The notes below the pieces were generated by a model. It did not search any database. It saw only the letters and a list, made by a program, of their open reading frames with translations, and was not told the origin of the DNA. Source: an uncultured bacterium (GTDB lineage: Bacteria > Desulfobacterota_D > UBA1144). From it: a stretch of 64,000 nucleotides of DNA. This document shows positions 8,202 to 12,141 of this stretch, piece by piece; position 1 is the first letter of the stretch; the number at the start of each line of letters is the position of its first letter. Both the position numbers and the translations under genes were made by a program. The stretch is taken from contig CAJWZJ010000005.1 in assembly GCA_913050245.1 (NCBI GenBank), positions 30,931-94,930 of the forward strand. The letters run 5' to 3'.

Positions 8202-8699
8202 CTACTTATTGTATAAAACCTCTTTTTTATCTGAAAAGAAAATTGATTTAGTGATTATATAAATTAATGCTACTAAAGATACTTGCTCTACAACCATTGA
8301 GGAGAGTTTTAATATAGCAAAATCAGCCGATATGAACCTAACTAACCAACTTGATGCAATATCCAATAAACATGCAGAAAAAGAGACAACAATAAGTAAT
8401 ATTTTTGTAAAATTTGATAAATTACTAAATAACATTAGATGATTTAATGTCATAAGAATTATACCCATAGCAAATAGATGGAAATGAGTTTCCTCAACTA
8501 TGGATCCATAACTTTTGGGTTGCCTAAAAGTTTCTGGATTGCCTAAATAATAATTAATTATTTCTTGTACTGTGAACCCTATTTTTGTCATAAAAAGAAA
8601 ATTAGTAATAATTAGGCCTATAAAAAATATTAAAGAAAAAAGAATAATTAATTTTAAAGCAAAATTTCTATTTAGATCTTTTGTAACAAAAAAACGCAT
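8202..8699 (-). CDS. Hypothetical integral membrane protein (about 4 TM) with EETHFH...NH motif
   Basis: Four hydrophobic segments; all three His residues lie in or next to one helix; last gene of the porin/FMN-binding run. Confidence 0.75.
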   Translation of the reverse strand: MRFFVTKDLNRNFALKLIILFSLIFFIGLIITNFLFMTKIGFTVQEIINYYLGNPETFRQPKSYGSIVEETHFHLFAMGIILMTLNHLMLFSNLSNFTKILLIVVSFSACLLDIASSWLVRFISADFAILKLSSMVVEQVSLVALIYIITKSIFFSDKKEVLYNK

Positions 8700-8708
8700 T
8701 TGATATGT

Positions 8709-9221
8709 TTAATCGTATATAAAAGAATTTACATTTGCAATTCTTCTTATAGCTTTTGTTGTTTCATTATATGAAATAGTTGAATTTGAAACTCTTATAA
8801 CTTCATTCTGTGTAGGCATATTGTTAACTTTTTTATTGTTAAATTGTTTTAGCCATGGCTGTGTCATAATATATTCTTCAGGCTCATAAAATGCTATAAC
8901 CTCTGCAGATTTCATCTCACCATTAGCTTTGAATACAATAAACAAAGTTTGTGTTCTTGTTCGAAGTCTGTGCGTTATAAGATAAGCAGTATAAACCCTT
9001 TTTCCATTCTTACTGGCTTCATAATAACTAAAAATTCTATTAGTAAATTTAGATTCAGATCTTTCAGATAGCTTATCAACGTTTTTTTGAGATAAATATA
9101 ATTTTTTACTTTCAATATTATATTGGCCAAGATACTTATTTAAAGCTTCATCAACAGACATCTTAACATTAGCTAAGGAAGCATTTGAGATTAATAAAAA
9201 GAGTAAAATATATTTCATCAT
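8709..9221 (-). CDS. Exported FMN-binding (flavinylation-target) domain protein
   Basis: Signal peptide MMKYILLFLLISNASLA, FMN_bind-like core (EVIAFYEPEEY..WLKQF), motif VSNSTIS at the position of the usual (S/T)GAT site. Start reassigned from 9317 to 9221/9218. Confidence 0.78.
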   Translation of the reverse strand: MMKYILLFLLISNASLANVKMSVDEALNKYLGQYNIESKKLYLSQKNVDKLSERSESKFTNRIFSYYEASKNGKRVYTAYLITHRLRTRTQTLFIVFKANGEMKSAEVIAFYEPEEYIMTQPWLKQFNNKKVNNMPTQNEVIRVSNSTISYNETTKAIRRIANVNSFIYD

Positions 9222-9227
9222 TCTAAT

Positions 9228-9324
9228 ATAACGGTTTTTAAGTTGAGTGCCACCTGTAAAGGCTTTAGTGTCGGTGACCAGTCGACTAAGGTGAGAGAGC
9301 TTAGGTACAGAAGGCACTCGTTAT
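9228..9324. ncRNA. Candidate structured RNA element of unknown family
   Basis: GC-rich island with nested inverted repeats GAGTGCC/GGCACTC, CTGTA/TACAG, GTCG/CGAC, CTAAG/CTTAG and outer ATAAC/GTTAT. I recognise no known RNA family consensus. Confidence 0.5.
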
Positions 9325-9353
9325 GCGTATTTAACAGTTTAAATAGTCATTAT

Positions 9354-10610
9354 CTAGAATATCCATCCTATTCCAAGGTTATATTGTGTGTAATCATTGT
9401 TTGACCCTGGATTTGTGTGTCTTAAAGCATCAGCTTTCAAAACAACGTTTCCAATTGGTTTTACAGTTAACCCATAATTCCAATATTGGAGATCTTGATA
9501 GCTTCTATTAGAATTTGCACTTGAATCAGTCTTCTTGTGGTAGTTGAGATTCTCGTATCTAAAGAACGGAGCAACATACCAGCTTGTACCAATCATATGT
9601 CCTAAATCTTTTGCTAATTCATAGTAATAACCAACTTGTTTGGTACCAAATTTTGTATTTGCATTACCAGTTAAATATGAATTAAATCTGTCAATATTAG
9701 ACAATTTATGATTTGTGTAAAGTGCACGATATTCGAAACCACCTACATCACCCATAATATAAATCGTTCTCCATTCGACTCTTGATTTAGGATCATTCAT
9801 ATCATAAGCAGTTGCTGTAATACCTGAAGGTTGGATGTTACCTCTGTAATAAGAACCACCAATAACAGTTTTATTATTAAAGTTATATTTAATAGAACCT
9901 GTTAAAGCTAATTCATTAGCAGTAGATGAACTACCCTTACTTCTGAAATTTTTATTAGTATTACCAGTGGCAGAAACACCTGGGTTTTTCAAAGAAGTAA
10001 GATAATAGAGTTTATACTCTAGCTGTTTTTCAGCTGTCTCTCCGAAAATACCAACACCATTTTCCCTATTTGTTGTAGGCAACATGGTTGTTTCAGTTTG
10101 AGGTCTATAAACACCGTGGAAAAGAGTTGGTTCATGTAGTTCGTTTATGATACCTGTAGGTAATAATAACAAACCAGCTCTGAAGCCCAATAAACCATTC
10201 ATTGCTTTTGGTGTATAATCAAGATAACCAAATTCAAGGAAAGCTTCATCACCATGCTCAAACTCAAGTTCAGTATTTAGTGACCATTCATCTGTGAATT
10301 TATAACCAATATAAAAAACACCTCTATAAGCATCAGTCTGATCTAATTTCTGCTCACTTCTGAAAAATTTACCAACAATTTCACCGTAACCACCAATAGA
10401 AAGTCCGGATGAAGTGTTATAAACTTTAGAAGCAGCAGGTCCAAAACCATACTGGGAGCCTATTTCACCGCCAAAGCCACTTCTTTTAAGTTGCTCAACT
10501 TCTTCAGTAAGAACATCAATTCTTTCTTCCAAAGATTGAGAAAAACTATTAAAAGGAATAGCAAAAATAGCAAGCATAATCACTAATAATTTAATATTAT
10601 TTGCAATCAT
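9354..10610 (-). CDS. Outer-membrane beta-barrel porin (porin O/P-like)
   Basis: SD AAGGAGG before ATG 10610, signal peptide, short coiled coil, SIGGYGE and ELEFEH motifs, alternating beta-strands, C-terminal beta-signal GIGWIF. Confidence 0.82.
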   Translation of the reverse strand: MIANNIKLLVIMLAIFAIPFNSFSQSLEERIDVLTEEVEQLKRSGFGGEIGSQYGFGPAASKVYNTSSGLSIGGYGEIVGKFFRSEQKLDQTDAYRGVFYIGYKFTDEWSLNTELEFEHGDEAFLEFGYLDYTPKAMNGLLGFRAGLLLLPTGIINELHEPTLFHGVYRPQTETTMLPTTNRENGVGIFGETAEKQLEYKLYYLTSLKNPGVSATGNTNKNFRSKGSSSTANELALTGSIKYNFNNKTVIGGSYYRGNIQPSGITATAYDMNDPKSRVEWRTIYIMGDVGGFEYRALYTNHKLSNIDRFNSYLTGNANTKFGTKQVGYYYELAKDLGHMIGTSWYVAPFFRYENLNYHKKTDSSANSNRSYQDLQYWNYGLTVKPIGNVVLKADALRHTNPGSNNDYTQYNLGIGWIF

Positions 10611-10632
10611 AATATCCTCCTTAGTAGATATT

Positions 10633-10658
10633 ATGGATATCCAATATCCATGATATCC
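10633..10658. promoter_or_regulatory. Operator-like 19-bp palindrome ATGGATAT-CCA-ATATCCAT plus an adjacent GATATCC repeat
   Basis: Perfect 8-3-8 inverted repeat in the divergent intergenic region; the half-site ATGGATATC recurs at 10727-10735. Confidence 0.55.
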
Positions 10659-10748
10659 TAAATATATATGTTTTAAAAAAAGTTTCAAGTAAAAAATTTG
10701 ACTAAATAATTTTATTTGATACATTTATGGATATCGGAGGTCTATAAT

Positions 10749-11108
10749 ATGAAAAATTTCAAGATATTTCTATTTTCTACTTTTATTTTATTATTGCCAT
10801 TGTCTGGAAAAACAGATTTTAAGCCATTAAAATTACAAATTGATAAATTTCAATCTCTTCTCTCTGAGTCTGAGACTATTACTAAAAGAGACCTTAAAAA
10901 AAATTTAAAATTATTAATGAATAAGGCTAAATCAATTGAAAGCAAACTAGCCAGCGGACACATTAATGACGATCTTAAATTTTTAATGAATAAGTATGTG
11001 TATAAGAATTCTGACAAAACAGTTAAAACTTCTGAACTCATTTATTGGATTGAGCACTTAGATGAAGAATTAATTATGTTCAAAGAAGATATGGGTATTG
11101 ACGGTTGA
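10749..11108 (+). CDS. Hypothetical secreted helical protein
   Basis: SD GGAGG 8 nt before ATG 10749, signal peptide-like N-terminus, amphipathic helices; overlaps the apbE ORF. Confidence 0.7.
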   Translation: MKNFKIFLFSTFILLLPLSGKTDFKPLKLQIDKFQSLLSESETITKRDLKKNLKLLMNKAKSIESKLASGHINDDLKFLMNKYVYKNSDKTVKTSELIYWIEHLDEELIMFKEDMGIDG

Positions 11109-12141
11109 TCTTGGTAAATTTGGATCACGATTTGTATCAAATAATAAAGAATTTAATAGGTACATAAAGCTGAAATACATTAAATTTTTCTTCCTCTTAT
11201 CAACTTTTCTTCTATTACCTCATACTTATTTTGCCAAAGAGTATAATAGGAGTTTTATAATATGGGGGACAAATTTTGATTTACAAATAAAATCAAACTT
11301 GGACAAGAAAAGTTTAAATTTAATATCAGAAGAATCAGTCAATATTTTAAATAGATTAAATATCATTTTTAATAATTATCAAAAGTTATCTGAAATTACT
11401 ATTTTCAATGAATCAAAAATAAATTCAGAAATATCAATTTCCCCTGAATTTGTTGAACTATTAATAGAATCCAAAAAATATCATGAAATATCGGATGGTT
11501 ATTTTGATATAACAATTGGAAATTTAACGTCAAAATTTGATTATAAAAATGTCGATAAATCAATCCAAATAAAAAAAAATCAATTCGATTGTAGCGGTTG
11601 GGAAAATATATTATTGGTCAAAAATAATTCTGCTCTAATTAAGAAAAAAAATTGCATTAATATTGATTTTGGCGGAATCGCTGAAGGCTATGCATTAAAA
11701 AAGATAATAAAGTTTATTAATCAATCAGGAATTGATGATGCAATTATTAATTTTGGAGGAAATATCTCAACATTATCTAAAAATCAAGATTGGGAAGTTT
11801 ATATTAATTACCCTTCAAAGGAACCTAAACCATTTAAAAAGATAAAACTTAATAACCTATCTATTTCAACATCATCTCTATATGGGAAATCTATTAAAAT
11901 TAATGGGGATAAAATGTCACATATATTTAATCCTAAAAATAAATTATTTTTAAAATATAAAAATTTATCGGTATCAGTTATTTCCGATGACCCCATATAT
12001 GCAGATGCTATGTCCACAGCTTTAATTTCAATGGATTACTCAGACATGGAAGCATTTATAGAAAAGAATAATATAAAAGTTATAGTTCTTGGAGAGAAAG
12101 ATGGGAAAGGAGAAGTTTTATATATATCTGATGGTATATAA
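11098..12141 (+). CDS. apbE: FAD:protein FMN transferase ApbE
   Basis: SDGYFDITIG, IDFGGIAEGYA, INFGGNI, SISTSSLY, SHIFNP, ADAMSTAL. Exact start uncertain. Confidence 0.93.
   Translation: MTVDLGKFGSRFVSNNKEFNRYIKLKYIKFFFLLSTFLLLPHTYFAKEYNRSFIIWGTNFDLQIKSNLDKKSLNLISEESVNILNRLNIIFNNYQKLSEITIFNESKINSEISISPEFVELLIESKKYHEISDGYFDITIGNLTSKFDYKNVDKSIQIKKNQFDCSGWENILLVKNNSALIKKKNCINIDFGGIAEGYALKKIIKFINQSGIDDAIINFGGNISTLSKNQDWEVYINYPSKEPKPFKKIKLNNLSISTSSLYGKSIKINGDKMSHIFNPKNKLFLKYKNLSVSVISDDPIYADAMSTALISMDYSDMEAFIEKNNIKVIVLGEKDGKGEVLYISDGI

What the first reader, a model, noticed from the sequence alone, without database searches (positions are those of the whole stretch)
8202..12141. Self-contained extracytoplasmic flavinylation module: porin, FMN-binding protein, His-membrane protein, secreted protein and ApbE
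Seen in sequence: a tRNA-flanked block (tRNA-Arg to tRNA-Pro) of two divergent operons. One encodes an outer-membrane porin, an exported FMN-binding protein and a small His-containing membrane protein; the other encodes a secreted helical protein and ApbE. Established knowledge: ApbE covalently attaches FMN to exported proteins that carry electrons in Nqr, Rnf, NosR and other extracytosolic redox systems. None of those partners is encoded here. Inference: a minimal chain (membrane electron donor, flavinylated periplasmic carrier, substrate entering through the dedicated porin) for reductive uptake of a metal or another nutrient, retained in a very streamlined genome. I cannot confirm whether this gene combination has already been described.
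Basis: partly seen in the sequence, partly recalled or inferred. Interest (0 to 1): 0.78.

Follow-up and report, generated by a model that had tools for sequence, protein, structure and literature searches.

The report
Iron-linked porin–flavoprotein–membrane protein cassette
The five genes are real. They are a rearranged copy of a widespread but undescribed gene set: a dedicated outer-membrane pore, a periplasmic flavoprotein, a small histidine-bearing inner-membrane protein and the flavin-attaching enzyme ApbE. Regulatory sites and neighbouring genes in many phyla tie this set to iron uptake, most likely by reducing iron in the cell envelope.

Summary
Observation confirmed. Between tRNA-Arg and tRNA-Pro lie two divergent operons: porin, FMN-binding protein and 4-TM His protein on the minus strand, and a small secreted protein plus ApbE on the plus strand.

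- **Parts.** ApbE is solid (Pfam E 5e-53). The flavoprotein is RnfG-like. The porin model is a 16-strand barrel. The membrane protein belongs to the uncharacterised family PF27139 (Aq_1264_TM).
- **Synteny.** The order porin > flavoprotein > membrane protein recurs in 80 of 80 species-level loci examined, from Methylococcaceae, Binatia, Myxococcota, Desulfuromonadales, Bacteroidota and others. ApbE is adjacent in 35 of them and fused to the flavoprotein once.
- **Iron.** Fur-like boxes precede the porin in 30 of 50 non-AT-rich loci, against 0.9% of background windows. Fur, FTR1 or FtrD genes adjoin the module in several phyla.
- **This lineage.** A different 19-bp palindrome precedes both the porin and the ferric-iron binding gene futA. 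This genus lost the FTR1 gene that sits in the operon in its relatives and carries FutAB instead.

Caveats: the flavinylation motif here is non-canonical (SNST), the cofactor of the membrane protein is unknown, and the direction of electron flow is inferred. I found no paper describing the module, so I rate it a new variant of the known flavinylation-linked iron systems.

The parts
8050..8123 (-). tRNA-Arg(TCT), left flank (tRNA-His at 7968-8040 lies just beyond)
   Evidence: ARAGORN; Rfam tRNA at 70.7 bits
8202..8699 (-). 165-aa inner-membrane protein with four TM helices, of family PF27139 (Aq_1264_TM). H72, H74 and H87 on TM2 are invariant, as are E69, W118, R121 and K131. Proposed point where electrons enter or leave the membrane.
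   Evidence: Homologues at 85-90% identity carry a precomputed PF27139 annotation. Invariant columns. AF2 model with pLDDT 80 and four long helices. No solved fold relative.
8709..9218 (-). 169-aa exported RnfG/NqrC-like FMN-binding protein, the presumed ApbE substrate. The acceptor Thr147 sits in the non-canonical motif I-R-V-S-N-S-T.
   Evidence: Pfam FMN_bind E 0.0076, below cut-off. Family profile against RnfG 9eri_G, E 1e-6, full length, with the motif aligned. Distant homologues carry [ST]G[AS]T.
9228..9324 (-). G+C-rich stem-loop between the porin and flavoprotein cistrons, with a 13-bp closing stem
   Evidence: RNA fold of 9205-9360(-): -30.3 kcal/mol, z -2.6. No Rfam family.
9354..10610 (-). 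418-aa outer-membrane porin: signal peptide, N-terminal helix (residues 27-46), then a 16-strand barrel. N112, E114, E116, E118 and H119 on strand 3 are invariant, as are N156, E157, H159 and E160 in the long loop after strand 5.
   Evidence: AF2 pLDDT 82. Foldseek matches to OmpC, OmpF, OprO and OprP, E 1e-10 to 1e-14. Invariant columns. More than 2,200 homologues.
10633..10651 (.). 19-bp palindrome ATGGATATCCAATATCCAT, 22 nt upstream of the porin start codon and overlapping the predicted transcription start. Candidate operator.
   Evidence: Sequence. The only other match with at most one mismatch in the genome lies 12 nt upstream of futA. Conserved upstream of the porin in relatives and in a 50%-GC genome of the same class. 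Conserved upstream of futA in four genomes. Promoter-like TTGAAA-16-TATATT at 10688-10661.
10727..10735 (+). Half-site ATGGATATC just after the promoter-like site of the sec-apbE operon
   Evidence: Sequence. TTGACT-16-TACATT at 10698-10725.
10749..11108 (+). 119-aa secreted, probably all-helical protein ('sec') with the conserved motifs ADFxP and YWxxH. Restricted to this lineage. In relatives it always sits next to FTR1.
   Evidence: Alignment. Only 8 representatives among 1.84 billion proteins. No Pfam or PDB relative. sec-FTR1 adjacency.
11098..12141 (+). ApbE, the FAD:protein FMN transferase, with an N-terminal hydrophobic segment. The ORF overlaps the end of sec by 11 nt. The true start is uncertain: TTG at 11098 is the only canonical start before the hydrophobic segment.
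   Evidence: Pfam E 4.7e-53. Solved ApbEs at E 1e-20, with the catalytic His and the D-A-x-S-T motif aligned. Motif table. DNA.
12142..12216 (-). tRNA-Pro(TGG), right flank, abutting the apbE stop codon
   Evidence: ARAGORN; Rfam

Best explanation
This is an iron-responsive, redox-based iron-acquisition cassette.

1. A dedicated 16-strand porin, with an invariant Glu/His-lined interior, lets an iron species cross the outer membrane without TonB.
2. In the periplasm an RnfG-like protein carries FMN that ApbE has attached to Thr147.
3. That flavoprotein exchanges electrons with the small 4-TM His protein (Aq_1264_TM) in the inner membrane. That protein probably binds haem or a metal at its three invariant TM2 histidines, perhaps as a dimer.
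4. The most likely reaction is reduction of ferric iron or weak ferric complexes to Fe(II).
5. The product goes to an inner-membrane importer. In relatives this is FTR1, encoded in the operon. In this genus it is FutAB, encoded elsewhere but preceded by the same operator-like palindrome.

Shown here: the gene identities, the synteny, the Fur-box enrichment, the iron-gene neighbourhood, and the shared palindrome.

Inferred: flavinylation of the SNST site, electron transfer through the membrane protein, the direction of electron flow, the porin's substrate, and the role of 'sec' as an FTR1-era accessory.
For: **Synteny.** The membrane protein was found in 80 of 80 loci, the flavoprotein in 78 and the porin in 72. 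They always lie in the order porin, flavoprotein, membrane protein on one strand. ApbE is adjacent in 35. Seven further contexts reached from individual proteins show the same arrangement.

**Link between ApbE and the flavoprotein.** L036 encodes an ApbE-FMN_bind fusion followed by the membrane protein. Distant homologues have the canonical [ST]G[AS]T motif. The family profile matches RnfG over its full length.

**Iron.**
- Fur-like boxes lie upstream of the porin in 30 of 50 loci, against 17 of 1914 background windows.
- Fur genes adjoin the module in L015, L032 and L079. FTR1 or an FTR1-FtrD fusion is present in L015, L016, L079, the marine clade and G021.
- In the own genome the 19-bp palindrome occurs with at most one mismatch only upstream of the porin and upstream of futA. 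futA matches FutA structures 6g7n and 2pt1 at E 1e-91 and 3e-86.
- The palindrome is conserved at both places in relatives.
- FTR1 and FutA are roughly complementary within the family. The one genome with neither (G007) has the cassette deleted down to remnants.

**Membrane partner as electron carrier.** In L015, L119 and L120 its place is taken by another small His-rich 4-TM protein, of which the L015 member was scanned and has weak DUF4405 similarity. DUF4405 proteins are experimentally shown haem-b proteins associated with flavinylation (PMC11334425).

**Porin.** The fold and the invariant acidic and His residues are given.
Against: - The window's flavoprotein lacks the D, G and A of the D-x-x-[ST]-G-A-[ST] motif; it reads I-R-V-S-N-S-T. 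Single G or A substitutions roughly halve flavinylation in a model protein (review PMC12052999).
- The marine ApbEs have Asn instead of the usual Asp after the catalytic His.
- The membrane protein has histidines on one helix only. It has no detectable homology to known cytochromes. No ferrochelatase was found in this 80%-complete genome.
- Most loci, about 70 of 80, have no iron transporter adjacent.
- Some loci have neighbours related to copper, zinc or nitric oxide: a multicopper oxidase with CopB, a CDF exporter, cytochrome c', cytochrome P460, YgbA_NO and di-haem peroxidases.
- In this window there is no Fur box. The regulator of the palindrome is unknown, and the palindrome could act at the RNA level.
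Confidence: 0.6

Rival explanations
1. The components are the same but the electrons flow the other way. The cassette would be the oxidising or electron-sink half of an oxidase-permease iron importer, like Fet3-Ftr1 or FtrABCD. Fe(II) would enter through the porin and be oxidised at the flavoprotein. The electrons would pass through the membrane protein to the quinone pool, and Fe(III) would go to FTR1 or to the ferric-binding FutA.
For: FTR1-family permeases are established to work with an oxidising partner (established knowledge of Fet3-Ftr1, EfeUOB and FtrABCD). The cassette lies next to FTR1, FTR1-FtrD fusions and a cytochrome c-FTR1 fusion. In this genus the co-regulated importer is FutA, a relative of ferric-binding proteins.
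Against: Most loci have no FTR1. Covalent FMN domains in known extracytosolic systems mostly deliver electrons outward (PMC8238504). Fe(II) is scarce in the oxic surface ocean where this lineage lives (established knowledge).
Confidence: 0.15
2. The triad handles another envelope substrate, and its iron regulation is secondary. It could reduce or traffic copper or another metal, or detoxify a periplasmic oxidant or nitrogen oxide.
For: Neighbours in some loci point this way: a multicopper oxidase with CopB, and a CDF exporter; cytochrome P460, cytochrome c' and YgbA_NO; a di-haem peroxidase between the porin and flavoprotein genes in Methylococcaceae. The family is frequent in copper-hungry methanotrophs.
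Against: These neighbours are each confined to one clade. The Fur-box enrichment spans clades. Fur and FTR1 adjacency recurs in unrelated phyla. Nitric oxide and peroxide need no porin.
Confidence: 0.12
3. In this genus the module is a decaying remnant. The SNST motif, the loss of FTR1 and the fast-evolving ApbE would mean that flavinylation no longer occurs. The porin and membrane protein would be kept for another reason.
For: The non-canonical motif is specific to this genus. ApbE is only 47-55% identical among close relatives, against 90% for the membrane protein and 87% for the porin. FTR1 has been lost. In G007 the cassette has been deleted.
Against: All five ORFs are intact in every genus member examined. 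The ApbE catalytic His, the GGIAEGYA segment and the D-A-x-S-T segment are conserved. The acceptor Thr is conserved. A 1-Mb streamlined genome rarely keeps 4 kb of dead genes. The operator shared with futA is conserved.
Confidence: 0.08

Closest known systems
Flavinylation-associated iron-assimilation systems: PepSY-like (FoxB type), MsrQ-like and P19/FTR1-associated FMN-binding clusters (Meheust et al. 2021, PMC8238504)
   Same: An ApbE sits next to an exported FMN_bind substrate and a small membrane redox partner. The clusters lie near iron transporters (FTR1). The proposed role is periplasmic iron redox chemistry for uptake.
   Different: The membrane partner is PF27139 (Aq_1264_TM), which is none of the five classes listed in that paper. 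A dedicated porin is an obligate first gene; 'porin' occurs 0 times in that paper's text. The FMN_bind domain scores below Pfam's cut-off in many members, which might let Pfam-based surveys miss them.
DUF4405 / FezC flavinylation-associated cytochromes b (Huang et al. 2024, PMC11334425)
   Same: A small His-bearing membrane protein is encoded beside ApbE and a flavinylated protein. FezC forms its haem sites by homodimerisation, which is what a protein with histidines on one helix only would need. In some cassettes (L015, L119, L120) the third gene is a different small His-rich protein; the L015 member, the only one scanned, has a weak DUF4405 hit.
   Different: There is no detectable homology: Pfam gave no hit, and hhalign against the L015/L119/L120 variant gave probability 0.3%. 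The protein has four TM helices rather than six, with three invariant His on one helix. Haem binding is untested.
RnfG / NqrC subunits of Rnf and Nqr
   Same: The flavoprotein profile aligns with RnfG (9eri_G) over its full length, with the flavinylation site in register.
   Different: The genome has no RnfD/NqrB or other complex subunits. The protein is soluble with a cleavable signal peptide rather than membrane-anchored in a complex. The motif here is SNST.
FtrABCD, EfeUOB and Fet3-Ftr1 oxidase-permease iron importers
   Same: In relatives the FTR1 permease is encoded in the same operon. A periplasmic redox partner is coupled to iron transport.
   Different: There is no P19, cupredoxin or DyP peroxidase. 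The redox partner is a covalent flavoprotein. This genome has no FTR1 at all.
Substrate-specific 16-strand porins (OprP/OprO) and general porins (OmpC/OmpF)
   Same: The predicted barrel has 16 strands and a long internal loop after strand 5. Foldseek E values are 1e-10 to 1e-14. A few homologues have weak Porin_O_P hits.
   Different: There is no sequence-level relative in the PDB. The protein has an N-terminal helix. It has an invariant acidic and His ladder instead of OprP's arginine ladder. It is genetically tied to a redox module.

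Membership tests
ApbE, FAD:protein FMN transferase (PF02424) | Sequence match above the curated threshold | tested here: met
   180.8 bits against a cut-off of 25.6, covering profile positions 2-265 of 266. 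Solved ApbEs match at E 1e-20.
ApbE, FAD:protein FMN transferase (PF02424) | Catalytic His (His257 of V. cholerae ApbE, per review PMC12052999) and the D-x-x-S-T metal/FAD segment | tested here: met
   S-H-I-F-N-P aligns with H-H-I-L-D-P and S-H-V-I-D-P. A-D-A-M-S-T-A aligns with G-D-G-L-S-T-A. The Asp after the His is Asn in the whole marine family.
ApbE, FAD:protein FMN transferase (PF02424) | Transfers FMN to a Thr or Ser of a target protein | not testable with these tools
   Needs co-expression followed by in-gel fluorescence or mass spectrometry.
FMN_bind (PF04205) ApbE substrates, RnfG/NqrC-like | Pfam match above the gathering score | tested here: not met
   The window protein scores 17.3 bits against a cut-off of 22. 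Homologues pass: L015 at 26.1 bits and the L036 fusion at 31.5 bits. The family profile matches RnfG at E 1e-6.
FMN_bind (PF04205) ApbE substrates, RnfG/NqrC-like | Flavinylation motif D-x-x-[ST]-G-A-[ST] (PMC12052999) | tested here: not met
   The window reads I-R-V-S-N-S-T. Only the acceptor Thr and the -3 Ser are kept. Distant homologues read [STAMV]-G-[AS]-T.
FMN_bind (PF04205) ApbE substrates, RnfG/NqrC-like | Extracytosolic location | tested here: met
   The N-terminus MKYILLFLLISNASLA has the form of a signal peptide (sequence reading, no predictor was run).
PF27139 Aq_1264_TM | Homology to members annotated with the family | tested here: met
   63 of 65 homologues, from 34% to 90% identity, carry a precomputed PF27139 annotation. 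The model is not in the local Pfam copy.
Flavinylation-associated membrane cytochromes (PepSY-like, MsrQ-like, DUF4405/FezC) | Sequence or profile homology, with His pairs on two helices that ligate haem b | tested here: not met
   No Pfam hit for any true family member. hhalign probability 0.3% against the weakly DUF4405-like L015/L119/L120 variant. No PDB fold match. The invariant His residues lie on TM2 only.
Flavinylation-associated membrane cytochromes (PepSY-like, MsrQ-like, DUF4405/FezC) | Binds haem b | not testable with these tools
   Needs expression and spectroscopy.
16-strand porins (general, or OprP/OprO-type; Porin_O_P PF07396) | 16-strand barrel fold | tested here: met
   16 strands in the AF2 model. 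Foldseek TM-scores of 0.55-0.68 on the target scale, E as low as 1e-14.
16-strand porins (general, or OprP/OprO-type; Porin_O_P PF07396) | Pfam family membership | tested here: not met
   No Pfam or NCBIfam hit. No PDB sequence relative for the family profile.
Fur regulon | Fur box in the promoter | tested here: not met
   There is no Fur-like box in the window's intergenic region; a different palindrome is present. For homologues the feature is met in 30 of 50 loci, against a 0.9% background.
FTR1-based iron importers | FTR1 permease in the locus or genome | tested here: not met
   Absent from the own genome and from three genus relatives. Present in the operon of G004/L017 and of the wider marine family.

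The most novel reading that the evidence does not exclude
The porin, flavoprotein and Aq_1264_TM triad may be an undescribed, TonB-independent reductive iron-uptake route spanning both membranes. On this reading Aq_1264_TM is a new minimal class of transmembrane electron carrier, a 4-TM protein that builds its cofactor site from one His-bearing helix per protomer. The porin would be the first cation- or iron-selective 16-strand channel with a Glu/His eyelet. In this streamlined ocean lineage the system would have been rewired in three ways: a lineage-specific operator replaces the Fur box and also controls futA; FutAB replaces FTR1; and ApbE (H-x-x-N-P) and its target (S-N-S-T) have co-evolved away from the textbook motif. 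Motif-based surveys would therefore miss such substrates.
Probability: 0.35. Interest if true: 0.8.

Novelty: new variant of a known kind. Interest (0 to 1): 0.62.

Why it matters
Iron limits growth over much of the ocean. How small-genome heterotrophs with few TonB-dependent receptors obtain iron is poorly understood.

A conserved, iron-regulated module that pairs its own pore with a periplasmic flavoprotein would be a cheap route to ligand-bound iron. It is retained in a genome of about 1 Mb. It is also present in hundreds of species, including cultivable ones such as Methylococcus capsulatus, Methylomonas lenta, Methylotetracoccus oryzae and Desulfuromonas sp. AOP6.

It would also add a sixth or seventh class of membrane partner to the catalogue of ApbE-dependent electron-transfer systems. 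It would give a function to PF27139 and to a porin family with more than 2,000 members. The cultivable carriers make it directly testable.

Tried and rejected
- **Fold search for the membrane protein.** Only generic four-helix bundles such as LTC4 synthase and MGST2 came up, at E above 0.6. No informative relative.
- **Pfam scan of all 26 aligned membrane proteins.** Nothing for true members. The single DUF4405 hit belonged to the L015 outlier, which turned out to be a different family.
- **PDB profile searches.** The porin profile and the 'sec' profile returned only coiled-coil noise.
- **Rfam on 7900-12400.** Only the three tRNAs were found.
- **Mobile-island reading of the tRNA flanks.** Rejected, because composition and flanking synteny are those of the host lineage.
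- **ApbE serving Nqr, Rnf or NosR elsewhere.** Rejected, because the genome has no NqrB/RnfD and no second FMN_bind hit.
- **FeoB as the importer.** The FeoB_N hits are generic GTPases of the wrong size.
- **Two-mismatch palindrome at window 1130.** It lies inside a coding region and was treated as chance.
- **Literature.** Searches for Aq_1264, FMN-binding with porin and Fur box, and ApbE with Methylococcus found nothing describing the module.
- **Complex structure prediction.** Not available with these tools.

Full report
**1. What is in the sequence**

The stretch 8202-12141 holds five ORFs in two divergent operons, bounded by tRNA-Arg (8050-8123) and tRNA-Pro (12142-12216).

On the minus strand:
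- a 418-aa exported protein (9354-10610);
- a 169-aa exported protein (8709-9218);
- a 165-aa membrane protein (8202-8699), whose start lies 9 nt after the preceding stop.

On the plus strand:
- a 119-aa exported helical protein, 'sec' (10749-11108);
- ApbE (11098-12141).

G+C is about 29%, like the rest of the window. The neighbouring genes argJ, recO and two ABC exporters are syntenic in relatives. The tRNA flanks therefore do not mark an island.

The window lies in a 0.8-Mb assembly that is 80% complete. The genome is about 1 Mb and belongs to an uncultured marine lineage. Public relatives are Tara Oceans MAGs and a single-cell genome, several labelled Thermodesulfobacteriota by their depositors.

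**2. Identities of the parts**

ApbE is unambiguous. The Pfam E-value is 4.7e-53. Solved ApbEs match at E 1e-20, with the catalytic His and the D-A-x-S-T segment aligned.

The 169-aa protein gives only a sub-threshold FMN_bind hit. A profile of 24 family members aligns with RnfG (9eri_G) from end to end at E 1e-6, with the flavinylation site in register.

The 418-aa protein has no Pfam, NCBIfam or PDB sequence relative. Its AlphaFold model (pLDDT 82) is a 16-strand barrel preceded by a helix. It matches OmpC, OmpF, OprO and OprP at Foldseek E 1e-10 to 1e-14. The family has unusually many invariant charged residues:
- N112, E114, E116 and E118, at alternating positions of predicted strand 3, followed by H119;
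- N156, E157, H159 and E160 in the long loop after strand 5.

I read this, by inference, as a cation- or metal-selective constriction.

The 165-aa protein belongs to PF27139 (Aq_1264_TM). That assignment is precomputed on its homologues; the model is missing from the local Pfam copy. The protein has four long helices (pLDDT 80). H72, H74 and H87 on the second helix are invariant, as are E69, W118, R121 and K131. It has no solved fold relative.

'sec' is lineage-restricted. Only 8 representatives turned up among 1.84 billion proteins.

**3. Synteny**

A scan of species-representative genomes with the membrane-protein alignment found 211 loci. The best 80 came from Methylococcaceae (including M. 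capsulatus Texas), Binatia, Myxococcota, Desulfuromonadales, Bacteroidota, Elusimicrobia, Nitrospiria, Thermodesulfovibrionia and the marine family.

HMMs built from the loci found the membrane protein in 80 of 80, the flavoprotein in 78 and the porin in 72; several contigs are truncated. The three genes always lie in the order porin, flavoprotein, membrane protein on one strand. ApbE is directly adjacent in 35 loci.

Contexts reached from porin homologues of only 35-40% identity show the same triad. The porin family therefore seems dedicated to this module.

One locus (L036) encodes an ApbE-FMN_bind fusion followed by the membrane protein. That fusion is a direct genomic link between the enzyme and its presumed substrate.

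**4. Why iron**

(a) *Fur boxes.* In loci with G+C above 45%, a sequence within five mismatches of the classical Fur box lies within -260 to +140 of the porin start in 30 of 50 loci. The background rate is 17 of 1914 windows of the same size. At four mismatches the figures are 16 of 50 against 6 of 1914. The background includes coding DNA, so the fold-enrichment is somewhat inflated. The boxes themselves are close matches, for example GAAATTGATAATGATTCTCAATTTC and GATATTGATAATCATTTGCATTATC.

(b) *Neighbouring genes.* Fur genes sit immediately beside the module in three unrelated lineages (L015, L032, L079). FTR1 or FTR1-FtrD fusions are present in L015 and L079. A genome of the same class (G021) has a cytochrome c-FTR1 fusion 4.4 kb away.

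(c) *The marine family.* The operon reads porin, flavoprotein, membrane protein, sec, FTR1. In the closest FTR1-bearing relative (L017) it reads sec-FTR1-ApbE divergent from the triad.

(d) *This window.* There is no Fur box. A perfect 19-bp palindrome, ATGGATATCCAATATCCAT, lies 22 nt upstream of the porin start.
- The only other site with at most one mismatch in the genome lies 12 nt upstream of a gene whose product matches FutA/FbpA iron-binding proteins at E 1e-91. A two-domain permease gene follows it. My rough estimate from base composition is about 0.06 such second sites expected by chance anywhere in the genome.
- The palindrome is conserved upstream of the porin in genus and family relatives. 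It is also conserved, with the same AGATATT flank, in the 50%-GC genome G021.
- It is conserved at the same offset upstream of futA in four genomes.

(e) *FTR1 and FutA.* Within the family the two importers are roughly complementary. G000-G003 and G005 have FutA only. G004 has both. G006 and G008 have FTR1 only. The one genome with neither (G007) retains only fragments of apbE and of the membrane-protein gene at the syntenic site.

**5. Mechanism**

The known logic of ApbE systems is a membrane electron-transfer component plus an extracytosolic flavinylated acceptor (PMC8238504). That logic fits the triad. The flavoprotein is exported. The membrane protein is the only candidate for carrying electrons across or out of the membrane. 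The porin supplies the substrate.

One observation supports this role for the third gene. In L015, L119 and L120 it is replaced by an unrelated small His-rich 4-TM protein. The L015 member was the one scanned, and it gave a weak DUF4405 hit (E 0.017, below threshold). The hhalign probability of homology between that variant and Aq_1264_TM is 0.3%. DUF4405 proteins and FezC are experimentally shown haem-b proteins associated with flavinylation and iron, and FezC builds its sites by dimerisation (PMC11334425).

Because Aq_1264_TM has its three invariant histidines on one helix, a homodimer with inter-protomer ligation is the simplest way to bind haem. This is inference. A metal site is equally possible from sequence.

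I favour ferric reduction, because flavin hydroquinones reduce ferric chelates and most loci lack an oxidase-dependent permease. The opposite direction, an electron sink for Fe(II) oxidation at FTR1, is a live rival.

**6. Caveats specific to this window**

The flavinylation motif is D-x-x-[ST]-G-A-[ST] (PMC12052999). Here it reads I-R-V-S-N-S-T. The Gly-to-Asn change is confined to this genus. The wider marine family has S-G-[AS]-T, and distant homologues are canonical.

The marine ApbEs also carry Asn in place of the usual Asp after the catalytic His. All ORFs and catalytic motifs are intact in all genus members. I therefore consider function retained, possibly with co-evolved specificity, but this is untested.

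The genome has a haem-copper oxidase, but I found no ferrochelatase in the 80% that is assembled. It also has one TonB-dependent receptor and no true FeoB.

**7. Comparison with the known, and novelty**

The kind of system is known: ApbE-dependent extracytosolic electron transfer tied to iron assimilation (PMC8238504, PMC11334425). This module is not among the described classes, which are NapH-like, MsrQ-like, PepSY-like, DsbD, NQR/RNF-like and DUF4405. 'Porin' does not occur in the 2021 survey's text. Targeted literature searches found nothing.

The FMN_bind domain of this family often scores below Pfam's cut-off. That may be why Pfam-based surveys missed it.

After finishing my own analysis I consulted this scan's notes. 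The same cassette has been reported by other agents in more than 70 genomes, with the same reading. That is agreement, not independent proof.

New here are the streamlined-genome context, the divergent two-operon layout with the extra 'sec' gene, the non-Fur palindrome shared with futA, the swap of FTR1 for FutAB, and the SNST site.

**8. Verdict**

I rate it a new variant of a known kind and of moderately high interest, because it is widespread, uncharacterised and testable in cultivable carriers.

Noticed in passing
window 9228-9324 (-): A G+C-rich stem-loop with a 13-bp closing stem lies between the porin and flavoprotein cistrons. The fold energy is -30.3 kcal/mol with z -2.6, and no Rfam family matches. 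It may stabilise the porin message or set the ratio of porin to downstream products.
   Followed up: partly
G000:C1:22565-23615 (L109 2063-3116; L121): futA, a relative of ferric/ferrous iron-binding proteins (E 1e-91 to 6g7n), is followed by a 529-aa two-domain permease gene. It is preceded at 12 nt by ATGGACATCATATATCCAT, the same palindrome type as upstream of the porin. The site is conserved at that offset in G001, G002 and G005.
   Followed up: yes
L022 4232-5054 (G007, same family): At the syntenic site between the ABC exporter and argJ, only ApbE residues 203-332 and membrane-protein residues 22-165 remain. The porin, flavoprotein and sec genes are gone. This genome also lacks both FTR1 and FutA.
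   Followed up: partly
L015 8921-9352, L119 7756-8193, L120 7969-8478: In some cassettes the third gene is a different 143-169-aa His-rich 4-TM protein; the L015 member, the only one scanned, has a weak DUF4405 hit. It is not detectably homologous to Aq_1264_TM. This looks like a non-orthologous replacement at the same position.
   Followed up: partly
L036 7147-8958: A single 604-aa protein fuses ApbE with the FMN_bind domain and is followed by the Aq_1264_TM gene. No porin was detected in that locus.
   Followed up: partly
G000:C3:72307-73239 (L003 1375-2307): A second, diverged, exported ApbE-like protein of 310 aa. Only the N-terminal half matches Pfam ApbE (E 2.5e-13). It lies between a 289-aa ORF and a 370-aa ORF, neither of which was annotated here. 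Its target is unknown.
   Followed up: no
own genome (G000): A haem-copper oxidase subunit I is present (C6:87022-88344), but no ferrochelatase was found. This may reflect the missing 20% of the genome, another haem pathway, or haem auxotrophy.
   Followed up: no
L012 6738-7217; L073 9589-10107; L119 8190-8504; L040 6425-7750: Genes related to nitric oxide or peroxide recur next to the triad in some clades: cytochrome P460, cytochrome c', YgbA_NO, and a di-haem peroxidase inserted between the porin and flavoprotein genes in Methylococcaceae.
   Followed up: no
L117 4301-4319 (G021, same class, 50% G+C): The palindrome ATGGATAACTGATATCCAT, with the same AGATATT flank as in the window, lies 25 nt upstream of the porin gene in a much larger, GC-richer relative. 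It is a deeply conserved cis-element whose regulator is unknown. A 978-aa leucine-rich-repeat protein gene lies between the cassette and the cytochrome c-FTR1 gene.
   Followed up: partly
window 11098-11190: The apbE ORF has no ATG or GTG before its hydrophobic segment. The only canonical start is a TTG that overlaps the end of sec by 11 nt. This implies either a long charged N-terminal region or a non-canonical start.
   Followed up: no
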